Below, in pieces: positions 8,518 through 61,376 of a DNA stretch of 64,000 bases. Under the pieces are notes generated by a model, which was not told the DNA's origin, made no database searches, and was given only the letters and a program-made list of their open reading frames with translations. Positions within the stretch are counted from its first letter, which is position 1, and every line of letters starts with the position of its first letter. The stretch is from a virus (Duplodnaviria; Caudoviricetes), in IMG/VR virus record IMGVR_UViG_2862873970_000001, positions 1 to 64,000 of that record; one strand, written 5' to 3'. The translations under genes and the position numbers were made by a program.

Positions 8518-9301
8518 TCTTTAGGGCATGACCTATAAGCCGCCGCAAGGTGGTGAAAGGCGAGGTGACAACTCGCCGCCGGCAACGGTACCTCATGCAA
8601 TCCCAACTCAACACCGTCACTGATACTGGCGGTGCGCTACCGAGTTACGCCCCCGGCCCAGGGCTGTGAACCAGTGGGGCTGACCATGCCGTACGTGCGG
8701 CTGAAAAGGCTATCGAACAAGGCTAGCGTGAGTGCGGAAGGAATATCAGTCCGACCCCGGCAGGGAAGGGCGGATTCCATGACGGTTTTAGTGCGGTGGT
8801 CGACGGATCACACGACGAATCCTGAGGGTGCGAAACAGGTGAGCCGACCTGAAGCACGAGAGGCGTGAAGCATTCTGTACCTCAAAAGGGTGCGGACCTT
8901 CATGGGGAAGCACGTCTCCAGTCAAAAACACACTTAGCTCATTGGCAGAGCATTGATATTTGGAATCAACGGAGTGGGTTCGATCCCCACAGTGTAATCA
9001 TCGCTATATGGTTATATAAAGCAAAAGCCTTTCCCTGCTGTAAAGTTAAAGCGTCTTAATCCCCTGCCGAGGTCGGAACAGGGGCCGTCACGAGCCCGCA
9101 AGGCGACGGCGGTTCATGGACAAGTAGTGCAGCTCTGGGCCCGCGAACCCAGTGTCGAAGCGAACGTCGTGGAGTAGCTTGCAGCATAACGAGTGGTTAG
9201 CGTAACTGACCAGGCGTGGTAAGTACCGATGGGAATCGGTGGAAAAGTCAGGAATCCATAATCTGGCGAAAGCTTACTGAGGAACGGTGTATTCTCAGCC
9301 T
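8518..9301 (+). ncRNA. large structured ncRNA, GOLLD-like
   Basis: ~780 nt with no convincing ORF; many GNRA-capped stems; internal tRNA-like element; segments such as TCAAAAGG, GAGTAG, ACGAGTGGT and terminal GTATTCTCAG resemble GOLLD as I recall it. Boundaries approximate. Confidence 0.65.
8928..8998 (+). tRNA. degenerate tRNA-like element (anticodon TTG, Gln) inside the ncRNA
   Basis: D arm GCTC-ATTGGCA-GAGC, anticodon arm TTGAT-ATTTGGA-ATCAA, T arm GTGGG-TTCGATC-CCCAC; acceptor stem only 5 bp (ACACT/AGTGT); no CCA. Confidence 0.6.
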
Positions 9302-10030: not shown

Positions 10031-10072
10031 CCGGGGTGCCCCCGTTAAGGCTGAGGCACCCCGGCTCTCTTT
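10031..10072 (+). terminator. putative intrinsic terminator
   Basis: CCGGGGTGCC...GGCACCCCGG stem followed by CTCTCTTT. Confidence 0.5.
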
Positions 10073-10926: not shown

Positions 10927-11268
10927 ATGAATTGCCATCCCATCCTCGATGAGGTACGAGTCACTAGTGAGACCGGTGGCCAAAAGGGTTCTAAGCTCGC
11001 GCGCTTCGACCTTATCCCGGCAGAAATCCTCTGGGAGATCGCTGAGCATTTTGGAAAAGGCGCAGCTAAATATTCAGATTCGAATTGGAAAAAAGGCTAT
11101 GACTGGAAGTACTCCTACGCAGCCTGCCAGCGCCACCTGAATTCTTTCTGGGCTGGCGAGGACATCGATCCCGAGACCGGGACTAAGCACGTTGTCGCCG
11201 CAGCCTGGCACTGCATCGCCCTGGCTTGGTTCATGGACAACATGCCGGAATACGACTCGCGTGGCTAA
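10927..11268 (+). CDS. dATP/dGTP diphosphohydrolase-domain protein
   Basis: RFDLIP...GA.KY...NW.KG...RHL..FW.GED.DPETG..H...AAW. Confidence 0.85.
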   Translation: MNCHPILDEVRVTSETGGQKGSKLARFDLIPAEILWEIAEHFGKGAAKYSDSNWKKGYDWKYSYAACQRHLNSFWAGEDIDPETGTKHVVAAAWHCIALAWFMDNMPEYDSRG

Positions 11269-12022
11269 CGGCCCCAAGACTCTGATCTATGACATTGAGC
11301 TAGCACCTAATGTGGTGTCGGCCTGGTCTCTTTTTAAGCCGATGATCGGCATAAATCAGATCATTGAGTCTTCGCACATCATCTGCTTTGCCTACCGCTG
11401 GCATGGCGAGAAACGCACCAAGTTCGCCTCCGAATGGGGCGATGGGTACAGCGACATGATCGCAACCCTGCACGCCCTCTTCGAAGAGGCTGATGTGGTC
11501 TGCGGGTACAACAGTGTCGGATTTGACGATAAGCACACCAGGGCGGCATTCCTAACCGAAGGATTAGCCCCTCCAGCCCCCTTTAAGCAGCTAGATCTCT
11601 ACAAGGAGATTCGCCGCCAGTTCAACTTTCCGAGTCGCAAGCTGGATTACATCTGCCAGCGCTTGGGGCTGGGGCATAAGGTGGCACACACCGGCCAAGA
11701 GCTGTGGAATGAAGTCCTGCGGCCCTCCAGTGAGCAGTCGGGCAAGAAGGCCCGCGCCCTTATGGCCAAGTATTGCAAGACCGACGTCGACTTGACGGTT
11801 GACCTGTATGACCTTCTTTACCCATGGCTCAAGATGCCGATTAACGCTGGCTTGTTTGTTGACGACAACGAGCCGGCGTGCCCCCACTGTGGCCATGCTG
11901 TACAGCGCCGGGGGTGGGCATATACGACAAACGGACGTTATCGCCGCTACTACTGCCCGGACTGCCATGTGTGGTCGAAGGGCAAGACCGGGGATAAATT
12001 CGCAGAATTGAGAGCAGCATGA
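11261..12022 (+). CDS. RNase H-fold (DnaQ-like) 3'-5' exonuclease with C-terminal Zn ribbon
   Basis: YDIE, GYNS..FD, KLDY, YC..DV; CPHCG...C.DC. Confidence 0.85.
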   Translation: MANGPKTLIYDIELAPNVVSAWSLFKPMIGINQIIESSHIICFAYRWHGEKRTKFASEWGDGYSDMIATLHALFEEADVVCGYNSVGFDDKHTRAAFLTEGLAPPAPFKQLDLYKEIRRQFNFPSRKLDYICQRLGLGHKVAHTGQELWNEVLRPSSEQSGKKARALMAKYCKTDVDLTVDLYDLLYPWLKMPINAGLFVDDNEPACPHCGHAVQRRGWAYTTNGRYRRYYCPDCHVWSKGKTGDKFAELRAA

Positions 12023-12289
12023 TCCAGACCTATGTCCAAAGAATATAACGACCGCTGTGATAGGCCGCTGCGTGAACAATATGCCGCACTTGAGCAGCAA
12101 CCCCTCCAGGTTATTGCTGGCCCCATGCCCTGGAGCACGGGGCAAAGCCTGTGACTGACGGGATTGCATTGCCGACACCAAACTGGTGGGCTTACGTGCC
12201 CTGGCGCGACATCATCGATCACGTCGAGGCCAATAGGCCCGGTAGCCTAGCCAACAACATCTCCCGCGAGAACGCGAGGAAGATTCTCG

Positions 12290-12607
12290 GTGGGTAATCC
12301 CATTGCCCGCCAGACGCTAGATGGCCCATGGGAATCTGACTATGCCCGCATGATCGGCGGTCCCATGCCCATCGTGACCGGCTACGACGCAACGATACAG
12401 GCCGCGGTCGACGGATGGACATACATATTCGATGGCGCCGGCAACTATCTAGGCCGTAAGCGCACCAACCCCGCCTGGGCGTTCGCCCATGGGGATAACT
12501 CCTGGGTTGATGAGATCCACGATTATGTAGGAGAAGAAAGTGACGACGCTGTTTCCGCTCGATCAGGAACAGAACGACAAGCTTCTCCTACAGGAAGCTC
12601 AGCGTAA
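12290..12607 (+). CDS. hypothetical protein
   Basis: ORF in the rightward operon. Confidence 0.4.
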   Translation: MGNPIARQTLDGPWESDYARMIGGPMPIVTGYDATIQAAVDGWTYIFDGAGNYLGRKRTNPAWAFAHGDNSWVDEIHDYVGEESDDAVSARSGTERQASPTGSSA

Positions 12608-13001
12608 GCAAGATTTAATAGACTTCGCCACTCGGCGATTTGCACCTCATCTGGTTGACAAACCCGATGTCCGACTAATCAATTTGTACTCCACGAACGC
12701 ATCCCTGCGGAAGGAGATCCGCGCCCTATGTGGCGACCGGATAATTTGCGTGGAACATGTGGTGGCCGCGACCGGGCGTAAAGACCGCAATGAGATGGTG
12801 CAAGAGGGCATGTATCTGGATCTGCCTCAATCGGCGGATCTGGTTGCCACCAAGTCGGCGTTGAACACAAAGGTGGAATGGTTGGCAGCGCGTTTAGGTG
12901 CGTTGCCAATCGTTCTGCCTGAAGCCACTAACTACCTCATGGCACTTCTGGAAAAGAAGCACGTCCTGACGATTGTCGGGGGCGAGCAATCAAGAAGCTG
13001 A
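12540..13001 (+). CDS. hypothetical protein
   Basis: AGGAG RBS; 153-aa ORF. Confidence 0.55.
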   Translation: MTTLFPLDQEQNDKLLLQEAQRKQDLIDFATRRFAPHLVDKPDVRLINLYSTNASLRKEIRALCGDRIICVEHVVAATGRKDRNEMVQEGMYLDLPQSADLVATKSALNTKVEWLAARLGALPIVLPEATNYLMALLEKKHVLTIVGGEQSRS

Positions 13002-13017
13002 GTCGACTAAAGGTGTC

Positions 13018-13434
13018 ATGATGGATAACTATTACTACTGCTGGTATCCCATGCGGGTGCTGCCGTATCAGGTTCTCACCCCATCCCTAACCATGTCGGG
13101 ATGCCAATGCGGACTAGGCAATGGCCAGCCCGCAGCGCGACTCTTCGCGACGTCTCTAACGGCCGAGCAGGAACTGATCCACACCCAGTACAAGGGTGGT
13201 ATCAGCATGGAGGAGGATTTCTATCCGGAGACTTTGACTGCGAACTTCATCGCCCCCGAGGCTGCCGCGGTTATGATATTCGGCATCTGGATCCACCCCA
13301 AGGCTTATCGCAAGGGTTCCGTCTACTTCGGCTTCTACGAGAAGGTCAAACGCACCCCTCCTATCGCCGGCCGGCTTCTCGACTCTTCACTCAATGAGGT
13401 TATTGAGCTTGATCCATATTCACCGCTGGTCTAA
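13018..13434 (+). CDS. hypothetical protein
   Basis: Open frame; start uncertain. Confidence 0.4.
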   Translation: MMDNYYYCWYPMRVLPYQVLTPSLTMSGCQCGLGNGQPAARLFATSLTAEQELIHTQYKGGISMEEDFYPETLTANFIAPEAAAVMIFGIWIHPKAYRKGSVYFGFYEKVKRTPPIAGRLLDSSLNEVIELDPYSPLV

Positions 13435-13521
13435 GTGGTCTGTGCCGTTTCAGCGGTATGACCTGATGTGGAAGTCGAGTCGACGCTGTCGCAGGTGCGG
13501 GAAGGAACAGGTGAAACTGAT

Positions 13522-13797
13522 ATGAGTGATCTTCGTGCGCGCCTCGCGGACGCACTGTGGCATCAGTGGGTTCCATCCCATGTCGTGTACGGCAGTGATG
13601 AGCCGGTCGGATTCCGCTCTCTGTGTGAATGGTCAGAATCCGTTGCCGATGTGCTGTTGTCGTTACCCGGCATCGCCATCCTGGACGAACAAGGCATCAA
13701 GACCGTCAACAAAGCCGCATCCGTCCTCGCGGGACACATAGGCGGCGATCTGTCACGCCGACTCAGCGCACTGATCGCGGCTAAGGAGGTTAATTGA
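13522..13797 (+). CDS. hypothetical protein
   Basis: MSDLRARLADAL...ADVLLSLPGIAI, a common mycobacteriophage small-protein pattern. Confidence 0.6.
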   Translation: MSDLRARLADALWHQWVPSHVVYGSDEPVGFRSLCEWSESVADVLLSLPGIAILDEQGIKTVNKAASVLAGHIGGDLSRRLSALIAAKEVN

Positions 13798-14207
13798 CCG
13801 ACGCTCATGAGCAAGAGGTCACGCATCACTACACGATGCACTACCCCGAACACGAGCCGCGCGAGCACGATCCCCACTACCACGATTTCGAGGCCTACCG
13901 GCGCCGCACAAAGGCGACCGCGGTGTGTGCCATAGGTGAGTGGCGGAAAGACTTCTCGGGCTGTCGGGGGCCGCTAGAGCTGCATCACGCGCACATCGAG
14001 TTCGCCCTGCAAAACGCCGTCGACTTAGCCGTCCTGGAGGCGCACTATCCCGGTGTGTCCAATCCGGACGAGGTTGGCGAATGGGTGGAGTCCGCGGCCA
14101 ACCTGGAATGGCTCTGCCAGTTCCATCATCGAGGCCATGGCGGGGTGCATGTCGCGTCCTCTAGTGACTTCGAAGCCCAGAAATTCATCGAGGGACTAAT
14201 CAGCTAG
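13794..14207 (+). CDS. His-rich HNH-like protein
   Basis: LELHH, NL..LC..HHRG..GVH. Confidence 0.55.
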   Translation: MTDAHEQEVTHHYTMHYPEHEPREHDPHYHDFEAYRRRTKATAVCAIGEWRKDFSGCRGPLELHHAHIEFALQNAVDLAVLEAHYPGVSNPDEVGEWVESAANLEWLCQFHHRGHGGVHVASSSDFEAQKFIEGLIS

Positions 14208-14215
14208 GACTCCGC

Positions 14216-14783
14216 ATGGACAAGTCATCGATCCCCTACTGGGTGGGTCTGCGTAACCAAATCTCTTACCGCGCCCACCAGCGTCGCGAGCCTATTACTT
14301 GCGCCAGCGGGGAAGAGACAACGTCCTACCTTGACCTCAAGAGCCTATTCACCCACAGCGGTGCGATGCTGCATCTAGCCGAGGCTATGCGTATCTATCG
14401 CCGCCAACTGGGCATCCCACTCCCCACGGCGGTGGGTGGGCCGACAATGGGCGCTGACTTCATGGCGTTCTCCATCGCTGTCGCACAGGTGGGCATTGAC
14501 TGGTTCTCCGTGCGCGACAAGCCCAAAGATCACGGCCTACAGAAGCTGATCGAGGGCGCCGAGCTTGACGAGTTCGACAAAGGTCGTCCTCGTGGATGAC
14601 GTGGTCTCTACTGGTGCTTCACTCATGCGCGCCTTCGATGCCGTATGGGATACCGGCGCTGAGATCCTAGCCGTCATGCCTTTAGTGGACCGTGCCGGCG
14701 TGGCCGATACGTCTTTCCGCGAACGAGGGGTGCGCTATCACCCACTGTTCACCCACCATGAGTTGGGAATTGATCCGCTGTAA
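14216..14783 (+). pseudogene. pyrE: orotate phosphoribosyltransferase-like gene split by a +1 frameshift
   Basis: ASG.....YLDLK, VGGP.MGA, VR..PKDHG..KLIEG in one frame; VVLVDDVVSTGAS PRPP motif in the +1 frame; break at AAA 14579-14581. Confidence 0.8.
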
Positions 14784-14989
14784 TGGATCACAAAGAGATC
14801 GCCGAAGCCCTTCTAGGCGCCAGCGACGTGTGGGCTCATGGCGGTATCGCACCGGATGGCCGACCACAAGCCTGGCCTTCAGCCCTCACCCACGCCATCC
14901 TGGCCCTGTGTGACCGCCTGGACGCCTTGCCGGCCGTCATCGCCCTAACTGATGCGGAAGAGTGCGAAGAGGGCCCAGAGGACCGATAA
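14783..14989 (+). CDS. hypothetical protein
   Basis: TAATG coupling; its TAA stop lies in the left arm of dif-like site A. Confidence 0.5.
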   Translation: MDHKEIAEALLGASDVWAHGGIAPDGRPQAWPSALTHAILALCDRLDALPAVIALTDAEECEEGPEDR

Positions 14990-15006
14990 GACGCCTTACG
15001 TCAGGC
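14979..15006 (+). repeat. dif/Xer-like site A
   Basis: AGGACCGATAA-GACGCC-TTACGTCAGGC (11-6-11). Confidence 0.7.
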
Positions 15007-15162
15007 CTCAGGGAAGTGAACCGAGAGCTTTGCGCGCCCGTCCTGCGCGGCCTCAACGATGGCGTTCCATTCCGGCTCGGGGACGTCGTACCTGCTCCCG
15101 TCCGTGAAACGGACCTCGACATCCCCGTTTCCGCGCCCGATGGCGTAATCGAAAACCTTCAT
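15001..15162 (-). CDS. cassette gene 1 (53 aa, MKVFDYAIGRGNGDVEVRFTDG...)
   Basis: GGGAG RBS just after site B; TGA stop inside the right arm of site A. Confidence 0.6.
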   Translation of the reverse strand: MKVFDYAIGRGNGDVEVRFTDGSRYDVPEPEWNAIVEAAQDGRAKLSVHFPEA

Positions 15163-15178
15163 GTCATCTCCCTGTCGA

Positions 15179-15210
15179 AGTGCCGATAATCAAGCGGTCT
15201 TATGTCGTCT
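15179..15210 (+). repeat. dif/Xer-like site B
   Basis: AGTGCCGATAA-TCAAGCGGTC-TTATGTCGTCT. Confidence 0.75.
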
Positions 15211-15397
15211 GTTCGGGATGCCAGGCGGCGATGTTGGCGCGCACAGCGCGGTCACGCGCCGCCAGCGCATCGTTGTATCTCTGTCGAGCCTCATCGACTT
15301 CATGCTGCGCCGCTAGCAGGTCAATTAGGGCAGCATCGACTGCCGCATTGGCCTCTAGGCGTTCACGCCAAGTGCGCTCTTTCAGTGTCTCGCTCAT
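15200..15397 (-). CDS. cassette gene 2 (65 aa, coiled coil)
   Basis: RBS just after site C; stop TAA is the TTA of site B. Confidence 0.6.
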   Translation of the reverse strand: MSETLKERTWRERLEANAAVDAALIDLLAAQHEVDEARQRYNDALAARDRAVRANIAAWHPEQTT

Positions 15398-15406
15398 GTT
15401 GACCCT

Positions 15407-15438
15407 TCTGCCGATAACTGCACGGTCTTATGTCGGGC
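15407..15438 (+). repeat. dif/Xer-like site C
   Basis: TCTGCCGATAA-CTGCACGGTC-TTATGTCGGGC. Confidence 0.75.
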
Positions 15439-15691
15439 TCAGCGGCTTGACGTTGGGCAGCGCGTAGTACGGATATGCGTCGAACGTGTCGCAGTCGTCC
15501 AGCTCGTCATCGTCGGCGTCAAGGTACTCGCGGGACTCGTCAAACTCCCACTGGAAGATGCCGTCGTCGTTGAAATAGCCGTGGTCGGTGGCGTGCCCGG
15601 CAGAATGCTTTGTCCCGATGCGCCCGAACTTGTCCGCGAACGCGGTGCCACTGGGAATGTCCTCGAAACGGCGGTAGTCATAGTCAGCCAT
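15428..15691 (-). CDS. cassette gene 3 (87 aa, highly acidic)
   Basis: AAGGAG RBS after site D; stop TAA is the TTA of site C. Confidence 0.65.
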   Translation of the reverse strand: MADYDYRRFEDIPSGTAFADKFGRIGTKHSAGHATDHGYFNDDGIFQWEFDESREYLDADDDELDDCDTFDAYPYYALPNVKPLSPT

Positions 15692-15712
15692 CTTGGTTCT
15701 CCTTGTGATTTG

Positions 15713-15742
15713 TTAGCCGATAACGTTGCGTTTATGAAATCC
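15713..15742 (+). repeat. dif/Xer-like site D
   Basis: TTAGCCGATAA-CGTTGCGT-TTATGAAATCC. Confidence 0.7.
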
Positions 15743-15813
15743 GGTGTCGTCTAACGGCAGGACGTCGGGCTCTGGACCCGAAGGTTGGGGTTCGAATCCT
15801 TGCACCGGAGCCA
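15740..15813 (+). tRNA. tRNA-Gln(CTG)
   Basis: Full cloverleaf TCCGGTG...CACCGGA-G-CCA, anticodon arm TCGGG-CTCTGGA-CCCGA, GGTTCGAATCC T loop. Confidence 0.95.
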
Positions 15814-15884
15814 CCGCTGGCAGTCGGCACACGGACACCGCGCCGGCCAGTTGGGACACCGCGGGGCTGCTACCTCCATGAGTT

Positions 15885-16070
15885 TCATTGACACATCCTT
15901 TGCACTGTCGGAATAGACATACCAATAGCTTCTGCAAGCTCTTCGTACGTGTGTCCCGATAACTTCGCTTCCTTGACCGCTTCATTGAGGCCAGCTCGGG
16001 TATACGAGGCTTTTTCAGCCTGTTGCTGCCAGATCTTCGCTAGGCGACGCACGCGGGCAAGATGATCCAT
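15885..16070 (-). CDS. small HTH DNA-binding protein
   Basis: AVKEAK.SG.TYEELAEAIGMSIPTVQR. Confidence 0.65.
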   Translation of the reverse strand: MDHLARVRRLAKIWQQQAEKASYTRAGLNEAVKEAKLSGHTYEELAEAIGMSIPTVQRMCQ

Positions 16071-16387
16071 CACTGCCCCACCAGCGTCAGCAGCGTCACG
16101 CGCTTCCACCCCATCGGCTCACACGCATACGCTGTTTCGCCGATCACCACGACATCCCCAACCGAGAGGCTGCGGTTACCGTTCCTGCGGTATTCCTGCG
16201 CCCAGGTTGTCCCAGGATCGTCTTTGTTCAACTGACTGAATACGATCTTCAGCAGCATCTCGATATGCCCACACGCGGGCAATGAGGACTGGAAAACGAT
16301 GGCCTCAGTCAGATCGTCACCAGCCGTGTACCCACGAAATGCTGCGGAGTTGTTCAGCAGAACTTTCACTGTCGCTTTGTCGCCCAT
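16070..16387 (-). CDS. YodL-like hypothetical protein
   Basis: RSLSVGDVVVI....Y.C...GW motif. Confidence 0.55.
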   Translation of the reverse strand: MGDKATVKVLLNNSAAFRGYTAGDDLTEAIVFQSSLPACGHIEMLLKIVFSQLNKDDPGTTWAQEYRRNGNRSLSVGDVVVIGETAYACEPMGWKRVTLLTLVGQ

Positions 16388-16830
16388 CAGAGTCCAGCCT
16401 CCAGGATCTCCCCGGCCACCTTGGCAATCCTCTCGCCATGCTCGTCGGTGGCCTCGCAGTGCATCAGCACATAGGACAGGTAGTCCAGCTCTTGATTCAT
16501 GTCGAACTCGACGCCGGCCATGCCCGCGGCGAAGATGGCGACTGAGTGAGCCTCGACCTCATGCAGATCCTCGTTGGCCACCTTCTGCGCCAGCGCAGGT
16601 AATGCCGCCCACATCTCTTCGACCGTTTCGGGGAACTTCATGGTGTGCCCGAGCAGTATATGCGCCATCTCGTGCATGGCCACGAATTCGGGGTAACGCT
16701 CCTGCGGGTCTATCGCCACTTCTCGGCCGATGCTGTACCCGCGTGGCTCTCCTTCCATGGGTCGATAAGGGACTGGCGTGATGTCCAGCCTTTCCATGGC
16801 TTTACGGATATCCCATTTTGGTTGAGTCAT
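16387..16830 (-). CDS. zincin metallopeptidase (ArdC/MPTase or ImmA-like)
   Basis: HEMAHILLGH (HExxH) followed by EVEAHSVA and YL.Y. Confidence 0.7.
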   Translation of the reverse strand: MTQPKWDIRKAMERLDITPVPYRPMEGEPRGYSIGREVAIDPQERYPEFVAMHEMAHILLGHTMKFPETVEEMWAALPALAQKVANEDLHEVEAHSVAIFAAGMAGVEFDMNQELDYLSYVLMHCEATDEHGERIAKVAGEILEAGL

Positions 16831-17117
16831 GCTAGTCCTCCTTATACTGAGGGTTGGTAGTTTAGTGAATGACGTCAGCTTATCACGTGTGATAAGTGAG
16901 ACACAAGACTTATGCCCGACTGAAAAGTACCGACTCCAATGTTTTGCCGACTCGCCAATGCTATTCAGTTAATGCGCTGTAGCCAGAAATTTTACGGGCC
17001 AATTTTGCGCCGATAGATCCAACGATCCCCCACCCGCTGCCACTCCAGGACAGCGGCAGACAGTGCGCGGCAGCCCGCGAAATGCCACCCATCCGTACGC
17101 CTACAGTGCTGACACAT

Positions 17118-22862: not shown

Positions 22863-22880
22863 CGCTTTGGTAAATCCGCC

Positions 22881-23138
22881 TTATGTCGCCTTAGATTGCT
22901 TGATTTCGAGTGCTTGACGTAGCCGCCAGGCGTTCGCCAAGTGCCGCGCCGACAGACCATCCTGGTAGGCGATCTGGCGCTCTAGCTGATCCTGTGGCCA
23001 CTCGGCCATACCCTCGATAACCTTGCGCTCAAAGGCGCACTGCTCGTCATCGCAGTCATAGGCGGGACCGGGCACTGACACCTGACACGATGTGCCGTCG
23101 ATGTCGATAACGTGGCTGTGGAAGTCAATCTTGCTCAT
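22881..23138 (-). CDS. cassette-type gene (85 aa)
   Basis: Stop within TTATGTCG (22881); GAGG RBS directly after GCCGATAA (23151-23158). Confidence 0.6.
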   Translation of the reverse strand: MSKIDFHSHVIDIDGTSCQVSVPGPAYDCDDEQCAFERKVIEGMAEWPQDQLERQIAYQDGLSARHLANAWRLRQALEIKQSKAT

Positions 23139-23174
23139 GGTGTCCTCTCTGCCGATAACGTTGCGAAATCGACA

Positions 23175-23399
23175 TCACGCCAGCACCGCTGTCCTGACCT
23201 GATGAACCCCACCACAGCTCCACCCATCCCGCTCATACCGCCATCCCCGCTGCCGCACGACCGCGTCCGCGTCTTCCTCACAGACTGCGTCGACCACCTG
23301 CACATGTGTACATGGCTGCGCCACCTCCCCGCGATGGCCGCGTCGACTCACGGTCTTGTCGCAGGTGTAGAGGTATCTGTTGATGACTTGTCTGGGCAT
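23175..23399 (-). CDS. hypothetical protein
   Basis: AAGGA RBS; GW....GWSCG..H motif. Confidence 0.5.
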   Translation of the reverse strand: MPRQVINRYLYTCDKTVSRRGHRGEVAQPCTHVQVVDAVCEEDADAVVRQRGWRYERDGWSCGGVHQVRTAVLA

Positions 23400-23408
23400 T
23401 CTTTTCCT

Positions 23409-23481
23409 TGGCGTGTAGCTCAATGGGCAGAGCAGCGGATTGTTAATCCGCCGGTTGGAGGTTCGAATCCTCCCGCGCCAG
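23409..23481 (+). tRNA. tRNA-Asn(GTT)
   Basis: TGGCGTG/CGCGCCA acceptor stem, GCTC-AATGGGCA-GAGC, GCGGA-TTGTTAA-TCCGC, GGAGG-TTCGAAT-CCTCC. Confidence 0.93.
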
Positions 23482-23691
23482 CCTGTAGCCGTCGAGATAG
23501 GGCTCCAGTGGCATTGAGAACTTGAGATGGACGACGCCGAGGTAATTGCCGACTTCGTCATAGACCTCGCAGAAGCTGTACATGCCGTCGAGGTGGTCGA
23601 ATTCCACCCACCCGTCCGGATAGTCCCCAGGGCATAGCCCATGGATCTTCGGCCGCGGATTCTGCCGCTGCGGTAGGTCGCTTAACTGCAT
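23443..23691 (-). CDS. hypothetical protein
   Basis: AAGGA RBS; FDHLDGMYSFC motif; 3' end overlaps the tRNA antisense. Confidence 0.55.
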   Translation of the reverse strand: MQLSDLPQRQNPRPKIHGLCPGDYPDGWVEFDHLDGMYSFCEVYDEVGNYLGVVHLKFSMPLEPYLDGYRLAREDSNLQPAD

Positions 23692-25098: not shown

Positions 25099-25575
25099 AT
25101 GGGCCAACGTGGACCCAAACCGCGGCCAACTCACCTGAAGGTGGTGGCCGGCGAGCAGGAGTCGCGCATCAACCGTGATGAGCCATTACCCACCGAGGGC
25201 GAAGTTGTCGCCCCTGAGGGCATGTCAGAGGCCGCAAGGGCTATCTGGGATGAACTGGCTCCAGACCTGATCGACAAGGGCTGCCTCACGCCGTGGGACG
25301 TCTACACGTTCGAAGCGTTCTGTCAGGCCGTCGCCCTCTACCGAGAGTGCCGCGACCTGCTGTACGAAGGCCAGTCGGAGTACGGCCGGTTTGTGGAACG
25401 CGGTGCGGCCGGCGGTGTTATCAAGTCCCCCTACCACCAGATGATGAGGGACCACGTCGAGACGATGGCCAAGCTGGGATCCCGCTTCGGCTTCACCCCG
25501 GGTGATCGTGCCAACCTCCGACTCGACGCCAGTGATAACGGGCCCGCACAGGGCGCCGAGAGGCTACTTAGTTAG
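25099..25575 (+). CDS. terminase small subunit (P27 family)
   Basis: RGPKPRPT.LKVV.G, A..IW.EL, FG.TP..RA.L; GGAGG RBS. Confidence 0.9.
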   Translation: MGQRGPKPRPTHLKVVAGEQESRINRDEPLPTEGEVVAPEGMSEAARAIWDELAPDLIDKGCLTPWDVYTFEAFCQAVALYRECRDLLYEGQSEYGRFVERGAAGGVIKSPYHQMMRDHVETMAKLGSRFGFTPGDRANLRLDASDNGPAQGAERLLS

Positions 25576-25761
25576 TGGCCACCTACCGCTTAGAGGCGTG
25601 GCTCAGCCACCCCGAGGGGGACATGGAAGACGAGTTGCAGGATCGCGTCGCGATGGCCATTCGTGGTGCCCAGGTCGGCATCAAAGAGGGTCCGGTGATC
25701 TTCCGCATCTACCCCTACGACCCGTCTGACACCGCCGCGTCGCTCTAGCGCCGAGTACACC

Positions 25762-25956
25762 CTACGTAAGGCTGCGAGCGCGATCCACAGCAGCGAAGTG
25801 GTTGTTTGCCTTGACAGTCTCGCGCCATTCGGCAGATGGATTGTGAAACAGTCCAAACTGAACATGCTCCTCGCACAGGCCGCATCGCGTGCAGCGCCGC
25901 AGGCTGTACCCATCCCATTCCCACGAATGGAACCACGATCCTTTGTTGTGGGCCAC
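25762..25956 (-). CDS. cassette-type gene (64 aa, CTRC motif)
   Basis: AGGAG RBS directly after GCCGATAA; stop within CTACGTAAGGC. Confidence 0.55.
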   Translation of the reverse strand: MAHNKGSWFHSWEWDGYSLRRCTRCGLCEEHVQFGLFHNPSAEWRETVKANNHFAAVDRARSLT

Positions 25957-26050
25957 TGTGTCTCCTATGCCGATAACGGGCGCTATGAAAGCTTCCCTAC
26001 CCGCACAGTACCCGAACTGTGAACATCCATCAACACCCCGAAAGGTGAAT

Positions 26051-26257
26051 ATGTCCGTAAACATTGAACAGATCGTCAAGGACATCGAGGACGCGGTTGC
26101 CAAGGGCGTCATTGACGTTAAGGCTGTCGAGCCCCTGGTGAACAAGGCTCTTGACATCCTGACCCTGGCCGAGCCCCTGGTCCCCCAGATCGCGCCGGTC
26201 GTGACCGTGGTTCGGCAGGTCGAAAACCTGGTGAACGAGGCCATCGCCAAGCTGTAA
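26051..26257 (+). CDS. hypothetical protein
   Basis: AAAGG RBS; amphipathic. Confidence 0.55.
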   Translation: MSVNIEQIVKDIEDAVAKGVIDVKAVEPLVNKALDILTLAEPLVPQIAPVVTVVRQVENLVNEAIAKL

Positions 26258-54604: not shown

Positions 54605-54757
54605 TTAGCCCGTAGCGCATCCGTCGCAGCGCACACCGTCGCCCTGCAATCTCCATCCCGGCGGCAGGCACTCCCGGATGCGCCTATCCGAATCGACGGG
54701 GTGGGACTTATCGGTGGCGCCGCAATTATCGCAACGCCACATCAGCAAAGCGCTCAT
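54605..54757 (-). CDS. small Zn-binding protein
   Basis: CDNCG...LPPGW...CDGC. Confidence 0.4.
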   Translation of the reverse strand: MSALLMWRCDNCGATDKSHPVDSDRRIRECLPPGWRLQGDGVRCDGCATG

Positions 54758-61117: not shown

Positions 61118-61376
61118 CGGTTTTCAGGGAGTTGGACGCGTCCCCACGGGGGTTGACGGGGATGTGCAGCGCCCCCGCGGGAACGTGATGCCTACCGTAC
61201 CGGTACGAGATTACGTTGGCAAGCGCCGATAGGGCGCCTTGCGTAAGCCCGACTTCAGCCAAGGGGCTTCGTGCAAGTTTCCGGCGCAACAGTAGTGTAT
61301 GGGGCAGCGTGAGCCAGTAGCAAAGCCAGTAATACCAGGGCCATTCGTCCATGGCGCTTTTGTGATGGGGTTTCAT
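61092..61376 (-). CDS. hypothetical protein (reads through dif-like site I)
   Basis: ATGA-coupled to the upstream gene; Trp/Tyr-rich N-terminus. Confidence 0.4.
   Translation of the reverse strand: MKPHHKSAMDEWPWYYWLCYWLTLPHTLLLRRKLARSPLAEVGLTQGALSALANVISYRYGRHHVPAGALHIPVNPRGDASNSLKTEKARHPRN

What the first reader, a model, noticed from the sequence alone, without database searches (positions are those of the whole stretch)
14979..15742. Stack of single-gene cassettes delimited by directly repeated dif/Xer-like sites (candidate Xer-driven gene-capture system)
Seen: four related sites in the same orientation separate three unrelated tiny leftward genes. A is AGGACCGATAA-6-TTACGTCAGGC (14979), B is AGTGCCGATAA-10-TTATGTCGTCT (15179), C is TCTGCCGATAA-10-TTATGTCGGGC (15407), D is TTAGCCGATAA-8-TTATGAAATCC (15713). 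Each unit is site arm, RBS, ORF, with the stop codon inside the next site (ACA TAA = TTATGT) and no room for a promoter, like integron cassettes. Established (recalled, needs checking): the actinobacterial chromosomal dif is approximately NNNRCCGATAA-N6-TTATGTCAAGT and is bound by XerC/XerD; Acinetobacter pdif modules usually alternate in orientation, whereas these are direct repeats. Inference: 0.2-0.3 kb circles carrying one dif-like site integrate in tandem via host XerCD or a related tyrosine recombinase. No recombinase is encoded in this window. I know of no such system described in mycobacteriophages. The 8- and 10-bp spacers are atypical for Xer.
Basis: partly seen in the sequence, partly recalled or inferred. 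Interest (0 to 1): 0.88.

Follow-up and report, generated by a model that had tools for sequence, protein, structure and literature searches.

The report
Portable phage gene cassettes, dif-shaped joints
A mycobacterial prophage carries tiny accessory genes as swappable units whose joints mimic the site where the host untangles its chromosomes, and the same joints occur in other phages of related bacteria, which gives a testable handle on how phages trade small genes.

Summary
The four sites are real: 4 matches against 0.07 expected. The window lies in a 78.7-kb prophage with a Kostyavirus-like terminase, inside a 67.7% GC genome.

After the true dif, sites B, C, A and F are the best matches to the genus dif profile in the whole 5.47-Mb genome.

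Read along the genes, each unit is TTATCGG(C/T), ribosome site, small ORF, then a stop inside (Y)GAC(R)TAAG(R)C. Six unrelated genes at four prophage loci have this form.

The same halves bound small genes in at least ten other high-GC IMG/VR records, in arrays of up to about ten genes.

ORF1 and ORF2 recur in other phages with the same halves but different neighbours. Similarity drops from 80% and 67% to 33-40% at the joints.

So the cassette reading is supported. A Xer mechanism is not shown:
- Spacers are 6-12 bp.
- The two sites around a cassette have unlike centres.
- Outer XerD-arm positions are not kept.
- Homologues of ORF3 and ORF-F elsewhere lack the joints.

The scan noted dif-shaped phage joints before on other DNA.

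The parts
14979..15006 (-). Joint A, the terminal joint of the three-gene array: AGGACCGATAA-GACGCC-TTACGTCAGGC. In gene sense it reads CTGACGTAAGGCGTC-TTATCGGTCC. It sits in an 11-bp gap between two convergent genes, with no gene start downstream.
   Evidence: dif-profile score 19.5 bits, fourth best in the genome. 21 of 25 bases match my hand alignment with the joint behind gene G near the integrase (sequence printed). Close to the L225 joint at 10057.
15001..15162 (-). Cassette gene ORF1 (53 aa, no family found)
   Evidence: A 90% identical homologue lies in an IMG/VR contig (L321/L334) with the same 5' and 3' halves but different neighbours.
15179..15210 (-). Joint B: AGTGCCGATAA-TCAAGCGGTC-TTATGTCGTCT. 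It is the 3' half of ORF2 (ACGACATAAGACCG) plus the 5' half of ORF1 (TTATCGGCAC, then the ribosome site).
   Evidence: 30.2 bits, second only to the true dif in the genome. Its leader resembles the one before an unrelated gene in G402.
15200..15397 (-). Cassette gene ORF2 (65 aa, no family found)
   Evidence: A 67% identical homologue in IMG/VR contig L335 has the same halves but other neighbours.
15407..15438 (-). Joint C: TCTGCCGATAA-CTGCACGGTC-TTATGTCGGGC
   Evidence: 23.5 bits, third best in the genome.
15428..15691 (-). Cassette gene ORF3 (87 aa, no family found)
   Evidence: The 53% identical homologues in two M. abscessus-type prophage records overlap their neighbours by 4 bp and have no joints.
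15713..15742 (-). Joint D, the first joint of the array: TTAGCCGATAA-CGTTGCGT-TTATGAAATCC. Its right arm abuts tRNA-Gln.
   Evidence: It shares the 15-mer GCCGATAACGTTGCG with joint E5'.
22864..22891 (-). 3' joint of the solitary cassette ORF-E: a degenerate left arm (TTGGTAAA), then TCCGCC, then TTATGTCGCC. The stop ACA TAA lies in the right arm.
22881..23138 (-). Cassette gene ORF-E (85 aa, no family, no homologue found)
23148..23177 (-). 5' joint of ORF-E: TCTGCCGATAA-CGTTGCG..., with no XerD-like arm. TTATCGGCA lies 12 nt before the ATG.
25762..25956 (-). Cassette gene ORF-F (64 aa, phrog_7164), a lone leftward gene between terS and terL
   Evidence: 81% identical to Bask21 gp89, which lies between Pnk and RNA ligase on the other strand without joints.
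25966..25993 (-). 5' joint of ORF-F: TATGCCGATAA-CGGGCG-CTATGAAAGCT. It lies between a promoter-like GTACTGTGCG motif and the ribosome site.
   Evidence: 19.0 bits, fifth best in the genome.

Best explanation
The sites are the joints of portable single-gene cassettes carried by phages of high-GC Gram-positive bacteria.

In the direction of the genes, each cassette reads: TTATCGG(C/T), 0-24 nt holding a ribosome-binding site, a small ORF of about 45-130 codons, and a stop codon embedded in (Y)GAC(R)TAAG(R)C. Where one cassette follows another, or meets the phage backbone, the 3' half of one and the 5' half of the next make a composite site. Read on the other strand, that site has the shape of the host dif: XerC-arm core CCGATAA, a spacer, then XerD-arm core TTAYGTC.

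Shown here:
- The halves are non-random and are the most dif-like sequences in the host genome after dif.
- Their polarity follows the gene, not the genome.
- The same halves bound unrelated genes in other phages.
- Two cassettes of this prophage recur elsewhere with both halves, while similarity collapses in the spacer on either side.

Inferred: the joints are recognised by a sequence-specific host factor, and I take host XerC/XerD acting non-canonically as the most likely one (about 0.4). 'Non-canonically' means long and unlike spacers, perhaps a single strand exchange. XerC/XerD would cut and rejoin within the spacer, so that units of 0.2-0.4 kb are excised, inserted or swapped between co-resident phages.

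That the units are exchange modules with these joints as borders I hold at about 0.75.
For: Non-randomness:
- 4 sites against 0.07 expected.
- 5 of 5 GCCGATAA copies in the window are on one strand, each before a leftward start.
- Of 12 TTATCGG/CCGATAA copies in the prophage, I place 7 at gene borders by reading their contexts.

dif-likeness:
- A profile built from 29 dif sites of other genus members was scanned over 5.47 Mb with spacers 4-12. It ranks dif at 41.8 bits, then B 30.2, C 23.5, A 19.5 and F 19.0. Only 13 hits exceed 14 bits.

A family beyond this genome:
- The same halves occur in G402 (4 sites, control 0), G407 (6 full sites, control 0; 10 TTATCRG and 9 AYRTAAR in about 2.3 kb around some ten ORFs of 44-83 aa), G408, G409, G401, G403, G404, G405, G406 and G410.
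- In G402, near-identical joint pairs flank unrelated cargo at 10.6 kb and 33.4 kb. Shared sequence is limited to a 21-nt and a 12-nt match.

Recurrence with the same borders:
- ORF1 against L321: 155 of 195 columns identical inside TTATCGG..TAAG, against 24 of 61 and 17 of 51 in the flanks.
- ORF2 against L335: 147 of 219 inside, against 22 of 55 and 23 of 64 in the flanks.
- In L321 an extra 83-aa gene sits between two copies of TGACATAAGG.

Other support:
- Full sites stand at array ends where no gene starts (A, the joint behind gene G, G402 33585, L225 10057). A purely start-linked signal does not predict this.
- The host has XerD (341 bits, over the cut-off) and an XerC-like gene (318.6 bits against a cut-off of 335).
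- Spacers never carry the ACA that ends the centre of all 30 chromosomal dif sites, so the joints would not pair with the chromosome's dif.
Against: - Spacer lengths: 6, 10, 10 and 8 bp here. In 20 sites of 10 other records: 2 of 6 bp, 8 of 7, 2 of 8, 1 of 9, 6 of 10 and 1 of 11. The genus dif is 6 bp in 30 of 30.
- The two joints around a cassette have unlike centres, for example CGCACGA against GGCCCGG in G402. Recombination between sites with unlike centres is described as inefficient, citing earlier work (10.1101/758037).
- Positions 8 (A) and 11 (T) of the XerD arm are invariant in 30 of 30 dif sites. C keeps neither. B keeps only the T at position 11 and A keeps only the A at position 8. 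D, E5' and F5' have no XerD-like arm.
- In L335, TTATCGG lies between the ribosome site and a GTG start, which looks more like an expression signal.
- Homologues of ORF3 (53%) and ORF-F (81%) in other phages have no joints.
- Pumpkin's 34.5-kb right arm has no copy of either half.
- Mosaic breakpoints at gene borders are common in these phages anyway (recalled), so the breakpoint result is weaker than it looks.
- Circles of 0.2-0.3 kb are stiff substrates.
- No binding, cleavage, circle or empty-site allele was observed. No stacked sites were found in the other 400 genus genomes for the exact pattern.
Confidence: 0.45

Rival explanations
1. The cassettes are the same, but they move by recombination through short homology. 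The 20-30 nt of shared joint and leader sequence act as portable linkers, like the PeSL regulatory cassettes of T4-type phages. Phage or host homologous recombination between them shuffles the genes. The joints would be kept because they supply a stop in two reading frames and a translation start region. The likeness to dif would be incidental or reflect another binding factor.
For: - The shared sequence runs beyond the arms. TTATCGGCACTTCGACAGGGAGATGACATG (joint B) is close to TTATCGGCACTCGACGGAGGAAGACATG before an unrelated gene in G402.
- The C-terminal HPE(Q)TT tails of ORF2 and of a G402 gene are encoded by the shared 3' element.
- In L321 the extra gene is flanked by 10-bp direct repeats of TGACATAAGG and lacks a TTATCGG half.
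- G407 has 25 of 26 nt identical joints in direct repeat.
- TGACRTAA closes two reading frames: ORF1 and genes in L321 and G407 stop at the TGA, others at the TAA.
- There is a precedent with demonstrated mini-circles: PMC2839356 (abstract read).
Against: - It does not explain why a 7-mer (TTATCGG) and a 6-7-mer (TTAYGTC) equal to the two dif arm cores, in the right relative orientation, stay nearly invariant while the leaders around them vary.
- No sigma-70-like promoter or terminator is present, as PeSLs have. The scan found 1 promoter-like hit against 0.6 expected and 0 terminators.
Confidence: 0.3
2. The elements are purely regulatory repeats with no part in mobility. They would be start- and stop-associated sequences like the SAS/ESAS of Cluster K phages or the stoperators of Cluster A. 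A phage or host protein would bind them, or they would act in the mRNA, to control expression of small accessory genes. Cassette-like mosaic borders would simply follow gene borders.
For: - Polarity always follows the gene.
- TTATCGGCA lies exactly 12 nt before the start in 3 of 5 cases (C, E5', F5'), and 19 and 24 nt in the others.
- F5' lies between a promoter-like motif and the ribosome site.
- In L335 the motif sits between the ribosome site and GTG.
- Cluster K ESAS are imperfect inverted repeats with variable 4-13 bp spacers upstream of starts, of unknown function and thought to bind protein (PMC3203893, passages read).
Against: - Full sites stand at array ends with no downstream gene.
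- The carrier phages look unlike one another: this prophage has a Kostyavirus-like terminase and G402 matches Bclasvirinae phages. A shared phage-encoded regulator is therefore unlikely.
- As RNA, the joints B and C fold no better than shuffles (z +1.07 and +1.04). Only F5' is notable (z -2.92).
- TM4 ESAS repeats are unrelated in sequence.
Confidence: 0.15
3. A different recombinase acts on the joints: the prophage's own tyrosine integrase, or another tyrosine recombinase of the host genome.
For: - The prophage encodes a tyrosine integrase at C58:102297-102752. Cassette G lies tail to tail with it, with a joint in the 18-bp gap between them.
- The host genome holds 11 PF00589 matches (10 over the family cut-off), one of them 0.3 kb from dif.
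Against: - The prophage ends are a 23-bp direct repeat unrelated to the joints.
- The joint family occurs in phage records that look unrelated to one another, so a common phage-borne recombinase is unlikely. I did not search those records for recombinase genes.
Confidence: 0.07

Closest known systems
dif modules (pdif modules) of Acinetobacter plasmids
   Same: Discrete accessory-gene units are bounded by sites that look like the host XerC/XerD target. Several units sit side by side, and the same unit is found in different replicons (abstracts in the listing).
   Different: - Here the sites are direct repeats whose polarity follows the gene. pdif sites alternate in orientation and have 6-bp centres (both recalled).
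- Here spacers are 6-12 bp and units are 0.2-0.4 kb single tiny genes.
- The carriers are phages of Actinobacteria, not plasmids.
PeSL mobile regulatory cassettes of T4-type phages (PMC2839356, PMC4122927)
   Same: Short conserved motifs flank small genes of unknown function in variable regions of phage genomes and mark the points of modular shuffling. Mini-circles are documented for PeSLs (abstract).
   Different: PeSLs are a strong sigma-70 promoter plus a terminator stem-loop. Neither was found here, and the motif is dif-shaped instead.
Integron gene cassettes (attC/attI, IntI)
   Same: Arrays of compact, mostly promoterless single-gene units sit in one orientation. The recombination site follows each gene, the next gene starts a few bases after it, and the first joint differs from the internal ones.
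   Different: - No IntI gene was identified beside the arrays (not specifically searched).
- The joints are about 25-32 bp, not 57-141 bp attC hairpins (recalled sizes).
- The joints do not fold better than shuffles, tested with RNA energy parameters only.
Start-associated sequences (SAS/ESAS) of Cluster K mycobacteriophages (PMC3203893)
   Same: Asymmetric repeats in one orientation lie just upstream of the starts of unrelated non-structural genes. Some overlap the upstream stop. ESAS are imperfect inverted repeats with a variable spacer, function unknown.
   Different: - The sequences are unrelated.
- SAS replaces the ribosome site, whereas here a normal ribosome site follows the motif.
- Here full sites also occur at array ends without a gene start.
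- Here cassette recurrence was shown.
IMEX elements (CTX-phi, TLC-phi, VGJ-phi) that exploit Xer
   Same: These are mobile DNAs with no recombinase of their own that use dif-like sites with non-canonical centres. Some use a single strand exchange (recalled).
   Different: IMEX elements insert whole elements into the chromosomal dif. Here the sites lie inside a phage genome that integrates with its own integrase elsewhere, and they bracket single genes.

Membership tests
Xer/dif recombination site | XerC-binding left arm with the genus core RCCGATAA | tested here: met
   A, B, C, D, E5' and F5' all carry (G/A)CCGATAA. Left-arm scores are 12.4-19.9 bits. 7 of the 32 genome-wide hits at 14 bits or more lie in the prophage, against 0.46 expected by length.
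Xer/dif recombination site | XerD-binding right arm TTATGTCA(A/G)NT, with A8 and T11 invariant in 30 of 30 genus dif sites | tested here: inconclusive
   B and C keep TTATGTC but have G at position 8. A has TTACGTCAGGC, 9 of 11 against the TTATGTCAGGT variant. D, E5' and F5' have no such arm.
Xer/dif recombination site | 6-bp central region | tested here: not met
   A has 6 bp, B 10, C 10 and D 8. In the family, 12 of 20 are 6-8 bp and 8 of 20 are 9-11 bp. The genus dif has 6 bp in 30 of 30. The 28-bp site with a 6-bp centre is stated in 10.1101/758037.
Xer/dif recombination site | Partner sites share the central region | tested here: not met
   The centres GACGCC, TCAAGCGGTC, CTGCACGGTC and CGTTGCGT all differ. 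The same holds for the G402 pairs. Some G407 joints do share centres.
Xer/dif recombination site | Bound and cut by XerC/XerD | not testable with these tools
   The host encodes XerD (341 bits, over the cut-off) and an XerC-like protein (318.6 bits, cut-off 335). No binding data exist.
Acinetobacter-type dif modules | Flanking sites in alternating (inverted) orientation | tested here: not met
   All sites of an array are direct repeats. The defining feature itself is recalled, not read.
Integron cassettes | attC hairpin site and an adjacent IntI integrase | tested here: not met
   The joints are 28-32 bp. Folds are no better than shuffles for B, C, D and E5'. The only tyrosine recombinase of the prophage is its integrase, 62 kb away. 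An IntI-specific domain was not searched for.
PeSL regulatory cassettes | Sigma-70 promoter plus terminator stem-loop in each repeat | tested here: not met
   1 promoter-like hit against 0.6 expected, and 0 terminator-like sites, in 14600-16200.
Cluster K SAS/ESAS | 13-bp GGGATAGGAGCCC 3-7 bp before the start; 17-bp inverted repeats upstream | tested here: not met
   The TM4 sites retrieved share no sequence with the joints. The architecture is similar.

The most novel reading that the evidence does not exclude
Phages and prophages of Actinobacteria run an integron-like gene-capture system without an integrase of their own. Host XerC/XerD, or XerC alone by a single strand exchange, would excise and insert 0.2-0.4 kb single-gene circles at dif-shaped joints. 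Accessory genes would thereby move between co-resident phages and build arrays of up to ten or more cassettes.
Probability: 0.3. Interest if true: 0.92.

Novelty: new variant of a known kind. Interest (0 to 1): 0.74.

Why it matters
How tailed phages gain and shuffle their many tiny accessory genes is a long-standing question. The usual answer is random illegitimate recombination followed by selection.

Here a defined 25-32 bp joint bounds such genes in phage records that look unrelated to one another, and it mimics the target of a conserved host recombinase. That would make part of the gene flux site-directed and directly testable by gel shifts, circle PCR and Xer depletion.

It also bears on the spread of small prophage accessory genes in mycobacteria, whose functions are unknown here, and it could give a new tool for inserting genes into mycobacteriophages.

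I found no description of it in the searchable literature. Earlier unchecked notes of this scan report dif-shaped joints in Clostridium-type and soil phages, so the phenomenon may be general.

Tried and rejected
RNA hairpin. Six joints were folded as RNA. B, C, D and E5' fold no better than shuffles (z +1.07, +1.04, -0.21, -0.24), A is weak (-1.48), and only F5' is notable (-2.92). Rejected as a general explanation. One apparently compensatory change between joint A and the joint behind gene G (CTGA/TCGG against CTTA/TAGG) was seen by eye only. DNA energy parameters were not tried.

Promoter or terminator. 1 promoter-like hit against 0.6 expected, and 0 terminators. My hand readings of -35/-10 boxes on either strand did not fit.

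Close relatives for an empty-site allele.
- Megablast and blastn of 14000-17000, 14700-16100 and 11000-15000 against 50,697 phage records gave only tRNA, ORF3 and one unrelated gene.
- A DNA search of 301 and then 401 genus genomes gave only short weak matches.
- No empty site was found, so that test remains open.

Homologue contexts.
- Two metagenome scans and one genome-contig scan found no relative.
- tblastn of ORF1, ORF2 and ORF-E against the phage records found nothing.
- A viral-contig scan for ORF-E found nothing.

Expression. No RNA holder was listed.

They were mostly single hits or conserved coding hits in unrelated low-GC phages. Only the high-GC loci were followed, so counts of carriers are a floor and a hand-picked subset.

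The genome-wide pairing of the 5' and 3' motifs (7 pairs against 0.23 expected) is circular for the five cassettes it was derived from. The one extra hit, at C75:9115, looks like chance.

An 8-mer tally of intergenic DNA was too noisy to use, because my ORF calls are crude.

My error. (protein 5) and 61 used 25762-25957, one base too long, so ORF-F was read in the wrong frame. The tblastn hits still led to Bask21 gp89. The correct frame, 25762-25956, was used.

Searches scanned the gene strand only.

Supplementary files of papers were not opened. Figures 14-15 and S3-S4 of PMC3203893, which hold the ESAS consensus, were not seen.

The tallies include the unpublished genome G372 as one of 401. 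No separate claim rests on it.

It was corrected and sent again.
Full report
OBSERVATION. CCGATAA-N4-14-TTAYG occurs 4 times in the window against 0.07 expected, and 0 of 100 shuffles reach 4. In the whole 5.47-Mb assembly it occurs 5 times: these four and one site on contig C80. The backwards control gives 4. The three leftward ORFs (15001-15162, 15200-15397, 15428-15691) are unrelated to each other and match no Pfam or PHROG family.

Three corrections. ORF1 stops at TGA 15001-15003, inside the right arm of A. The right arm of D ends no credible gene and abuts tRNA-Gln 15740-15813 on the + strand. The left arm of A overlaps the stop of a rightward ORF.

CONTEXT. The genome is 67.7% GC, but C58:25-105 kb is about 58% GC. 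A 23-bp direct repeat at C58:24728 and C58:103415 bounds a 78.7-kb prophage. A tyrosine integrase lies next to the right repeat, outside the window.

The large terminase is 68.8% identical to those of Pumpkin, Dumbo, Bask21 and relatives. Pumpkin and Bask21 are recorded under the genus Kostyavirus; I recall these phages as Cluster E. As in Pumpkin, a rightward early operon is followed by a block of leftward genes before the packaging genes. The finding sits where the two blocks converge.

IS IT DIF-LIKE? Yes. The C80 site reads AACGCCGATAA-GCGACA-TTATGTCAAGT in a gap between genes. CCGATAA-N6-10-TTATGTC occurs, mostly once, in 332 of 401 genus genomes, and in 280 of 312 good-quality ones. Thirty aligned sites give WNYRCCGATAA-gcNACA-TTATGTCA(A/G)NT. 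The centre is 6 bp and ends in ACA in 30 of 30, and positions 8 (A) and 11 (T) of the right arm are invariant.

A profile of 29 such sites from other genomes was scanned over the host genome with spacers of 4-12 bp. It ranks dif first (41.8 bits), then B (30.2), C (23.5), A (19.5) and F (19.0). Only 13 hits exceed 14 bits. One caveat: the 29 sites were collected with a pattern that fixes the two cores, which inflates those columns.

The host has XerD and an XerC-like gene.

MORE COPIES AND THE ANATOMY. GCCGATAA occurs 5 times in the window, all on the + strand, against 72 in the genome. Besides B, C and D, there is a copy at 23151 (E5', sharing 15 bases with D) and one at 25969 (F5'). Each precedes, in the leftward sense, a ribosome site and a start. 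TTATCGGCA lies 12 nt before the start in C, E5' and F5', 19 nt in B and 24 nt in D.

A 3' motif, AC(A/G)TA(A/G)G(A/G)C(C/G), occurs 7 times in the prophage and 57 times in the genome. Five of the seven lie at the ends of ORF1, ORF2, ORF3, ORF-E (22881-23138) and a rightward gene G (window coordinates 77160-77359, beyond the window).

Gene G is preceded by GTTATCGGTAC plus a ribosome site. It is followed, in the 18-bp gap before the convergent integrase gene, by CTTACGTAAGGCGATTTATAGGTCG. By my hand alignment that matches joint A at 21 of 25 bases (sequence).

So the polarity of the sites follows the gene, not the genome. Six unrelated small genes at four loci share the plan: 5' half, ribosome site, ORF, 3' half.

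ORDINARY EXPLANATIONS TESTED.
- As RNA, the joints do not fold better than shuffles, except F5'.
- No terminators and no excess of promoter-like sites were found.
- A different motif, GTAC(A/T)GT(A/G)(C/G)G, with 9 of its 18 genome copies in the prophage, sits upstream of several leftward genes and looks like the real promoter or operator. F5' lies between it and the ribosome site.
- Pumpkin's 34.5-kb right arm has no copy of either half.

HOMOLOGUES WITHOUT JOINTS. ORF3 homologues (53% identity) in prophiT49-3 and in an IMG/VR record overlap their neighbours by 4 bp. ORF-F is 81% identical to Bask21 gp89, which lies between Pnk and RNA ligase on the other strand and overlaps both neighbours. 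The conserved Thr-stop end of ORF-F is therefore ancestral, not a site. These two results count against the idea that the genes always travel with the sites.

THE FAMILY. The high-GC loci, however, showed the same architecture.

Whole-record scans for AYRTAA, a 6-10 bp or 5-11 bp gap, then TTATCRG gave the following. The backwards control was 0 in all:
- G402: 4 forward, 0 reverse.
- G407: 6 forward, 0 reverse.
- G408: 2. G409: 2.
- G401, G403, G404, G405, G406 and G410: 1 each.

G407 holds 10 TTATCRG and 9 AYRTAAR on the gene strand, within about 2.3 kb of the 3.8-kb stretch read, around some ten ORFs of 44-83 aa. It also has one gene-less tandem joint at 9176-9198.

G402 is a complete 70.7-kb phage that matches Bclasvirinae phages such as Acadian and Thonko at RuvC and the terminase. 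In it, the pairs ACGTAACGC(AC)GA-TTATCGG and ACATAAGGCCCGG(G)-TTATCGG flank two genes at 10.6 kb and a different 49-aa gene at 33.4 kb. Shared sequence is limited to the joints. At the first locus, Indlovu and Saguaro have no gene between RuvC and the terminase, and Acadian and Thonko have one, without joints.

Among 400 other genus genomes, 15 carry one long-spacer site each. The control hits 6 genomes. By eye, at least L059 and L072 are the same element in what look like prophage settings.

DO CASSETTES RECUR WITH THE SAME BORDERS?
- ORF1 has a 90% identical homologue in a 46-kb IMG/VR phage. Similarity to the window begins at TTATCGGC and ends at CTGAC(G/A)TAAGG: 155 of 195 columns identical inside, against 24 of 61 upstream and 17 of 51 downstream.
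- There the upstream neighbour is an unrelated 132-aa gene. An extra 83-aa gene sits between two copies of TGACATAAGG before a terminal TGACATAAGGCGACC-TTATCGGCC.
- ORF2 has a 67% identical homologue in a 77-kb record. Similarity runs from GTTATCGGCAGA to ACGAC(A/G)TAAGA: 147 of 219 columns inside, against 22 of 55 and 23 of 64 outside. The neighbours are again different.
- So 2 of the 4 cassettes with detectable homologues keep both halves, and 2 do not. For ORF-E no homologue was found in the collections searched.

DOES XER DO IT? Points in favour:
- Both arm cores are present in the right relative order.
- The breakpoints fall in the spacer.
- The 7-mer stays nearly invariant while the leaders around it vary, which argues for a sequence-specific and probably host-borne factor, because the carrier phages look unrelated to one another.
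- The spacers lack the chromosomal ACA.

Points against:
- Spacers are 6, 10, 10 and 8 bp here.
- In 20 sites of 10 other records, 12 are 6-8 bp and 8 are 9-11 bp.
- The two joints of a cassette have unlike centres. A mycobacterial Xer-cise preprint says efficient strand transfer needs the first 2-3 nucleotides of the centre to pair, and that recombination between unlike centres is inefficient (10.1101/758037).
- The outer XerD-arm positions are not kept, and D, E5' and F5' lack that arm.
- In L335 the motif can sit between the ribosome site and GTG.

A single strand exchange at one spacer border, as recalled for CTX-type elements and integrons, would tolerate these features. That is inference.

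VERDICT.
- The units are exchange modules bounded by these joints: about 0.75.
- A tyrosine recombinase, most likely XerC/XerD, acts on them: about 0.4.
- Recombination through the shared 20-30 nt (PeSL-like; PMC2839356, abstract read): about 0.3.
- A purely regulatory repeat like SAS/ESAS (PMC3203893, passages read): about 0.15.

It fails the membership tests for canonical dif, pdif modules, integron attC, PeSL and SAS/ESAS, while working like several of them. Full-text searches found no description in actinobacteriophages (listings only). Earlier unchecked notes of this scan describe dif-shaped or stop-and-start joints in Clostridium-type and soil phages.

LIMITS.
- There are no experimental data, no RNA data and no empty-site allele.
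- My ORF calls are crude.
- Hosts of the IMG/VR records are unknown to me.

Noticed in passing
window 19546, 20649, 21176, 21640, 24245, 25077, 26011 (minus strand); 63294 (plus strand); a ninth copy at 65745 (plus strand) lies beyond the window: A 10-mer, GTAC(A/T)GT(A/G)(C/G)G, often preceded by GCGTACGG, has 9 of its 18 genome copies in the prophage. Most lie in gaps upstream of leftward genes. It is probably the promoter or operator of these genes.
   Followed up: partly
G000:C80:78809-82027 (L005): The chromosomal dif lies 0.3 kb upstream of a 372-aa tyrosine recombinase ORF (79085-80203), followed by a 496-aa ORF. This could be an element lodged beside dif. A lone XerC-arm-like AATGCCGATAA also lies 0.3 kb from another recombinase gene at C91:179175.
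   Followed up: no
C58:24728-24750 and C58:103415-103437 (just outside the window on both sides): The prophage ends are a 23-bp direct repeat. The host sequence left of the left repeat reads, on the other strand and by my hand translation, like the N-terminus of a translational GTPase (AHIDHGKST motif). The phage may therefore integrate at the 5' end of that gene.
   Followed up: partly
window 15740-15813 and 23409-23483: tRNA-Gln(ctg) and tRNA-Asn are on the + strand but embedded among leftward genes. Joints D and E5', which share a 15-mer, lie 24 bp and 258 bp upstream of them.
   Followed up: no
window 25575-26052; L185 1614-2278: The terS-terL interval holds leftward genes both here (ORF-F) and in Pumpkin (gp7, gp8), but the genes are unrelated. 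It looks like a conserved slot for reverse-oriented accessory genes.
   Followed up: partly
L333 640-860, L331 640-660 (Thonko, Indlovu): In these phages the gene inserted between RuvC and the terminase in Thonko is flanked by direct repeats GCTAGCCGATGC. Indlovu has the single copy TAGCCGAT. This is a second kind of short repeat at an accessory-gene slot.
   Followed up: no
L336 (G407:C1) 9176-9198: Two joint halves stand 22 nt apart with no ORF between them (TTATCGGCAAAGCACCGCAACGTTATCGGCG). This looks like the scar of a lost cassette.
   Followed up: no
window 61200-61250: GCAAGCGCCGATAGGGCGCCTTGC forms a 9-bp GC-rich stem-loop at the end of a rightward gene.
   Followed up: partly
window 54700-54730: GGGGTGGGACTTATCGGTGGCG: a TTATCGG copy overlaps a possible GTG start on the + strand, as in L335. 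This may be a further start-linked copy among the late genes.
   Followed up: no
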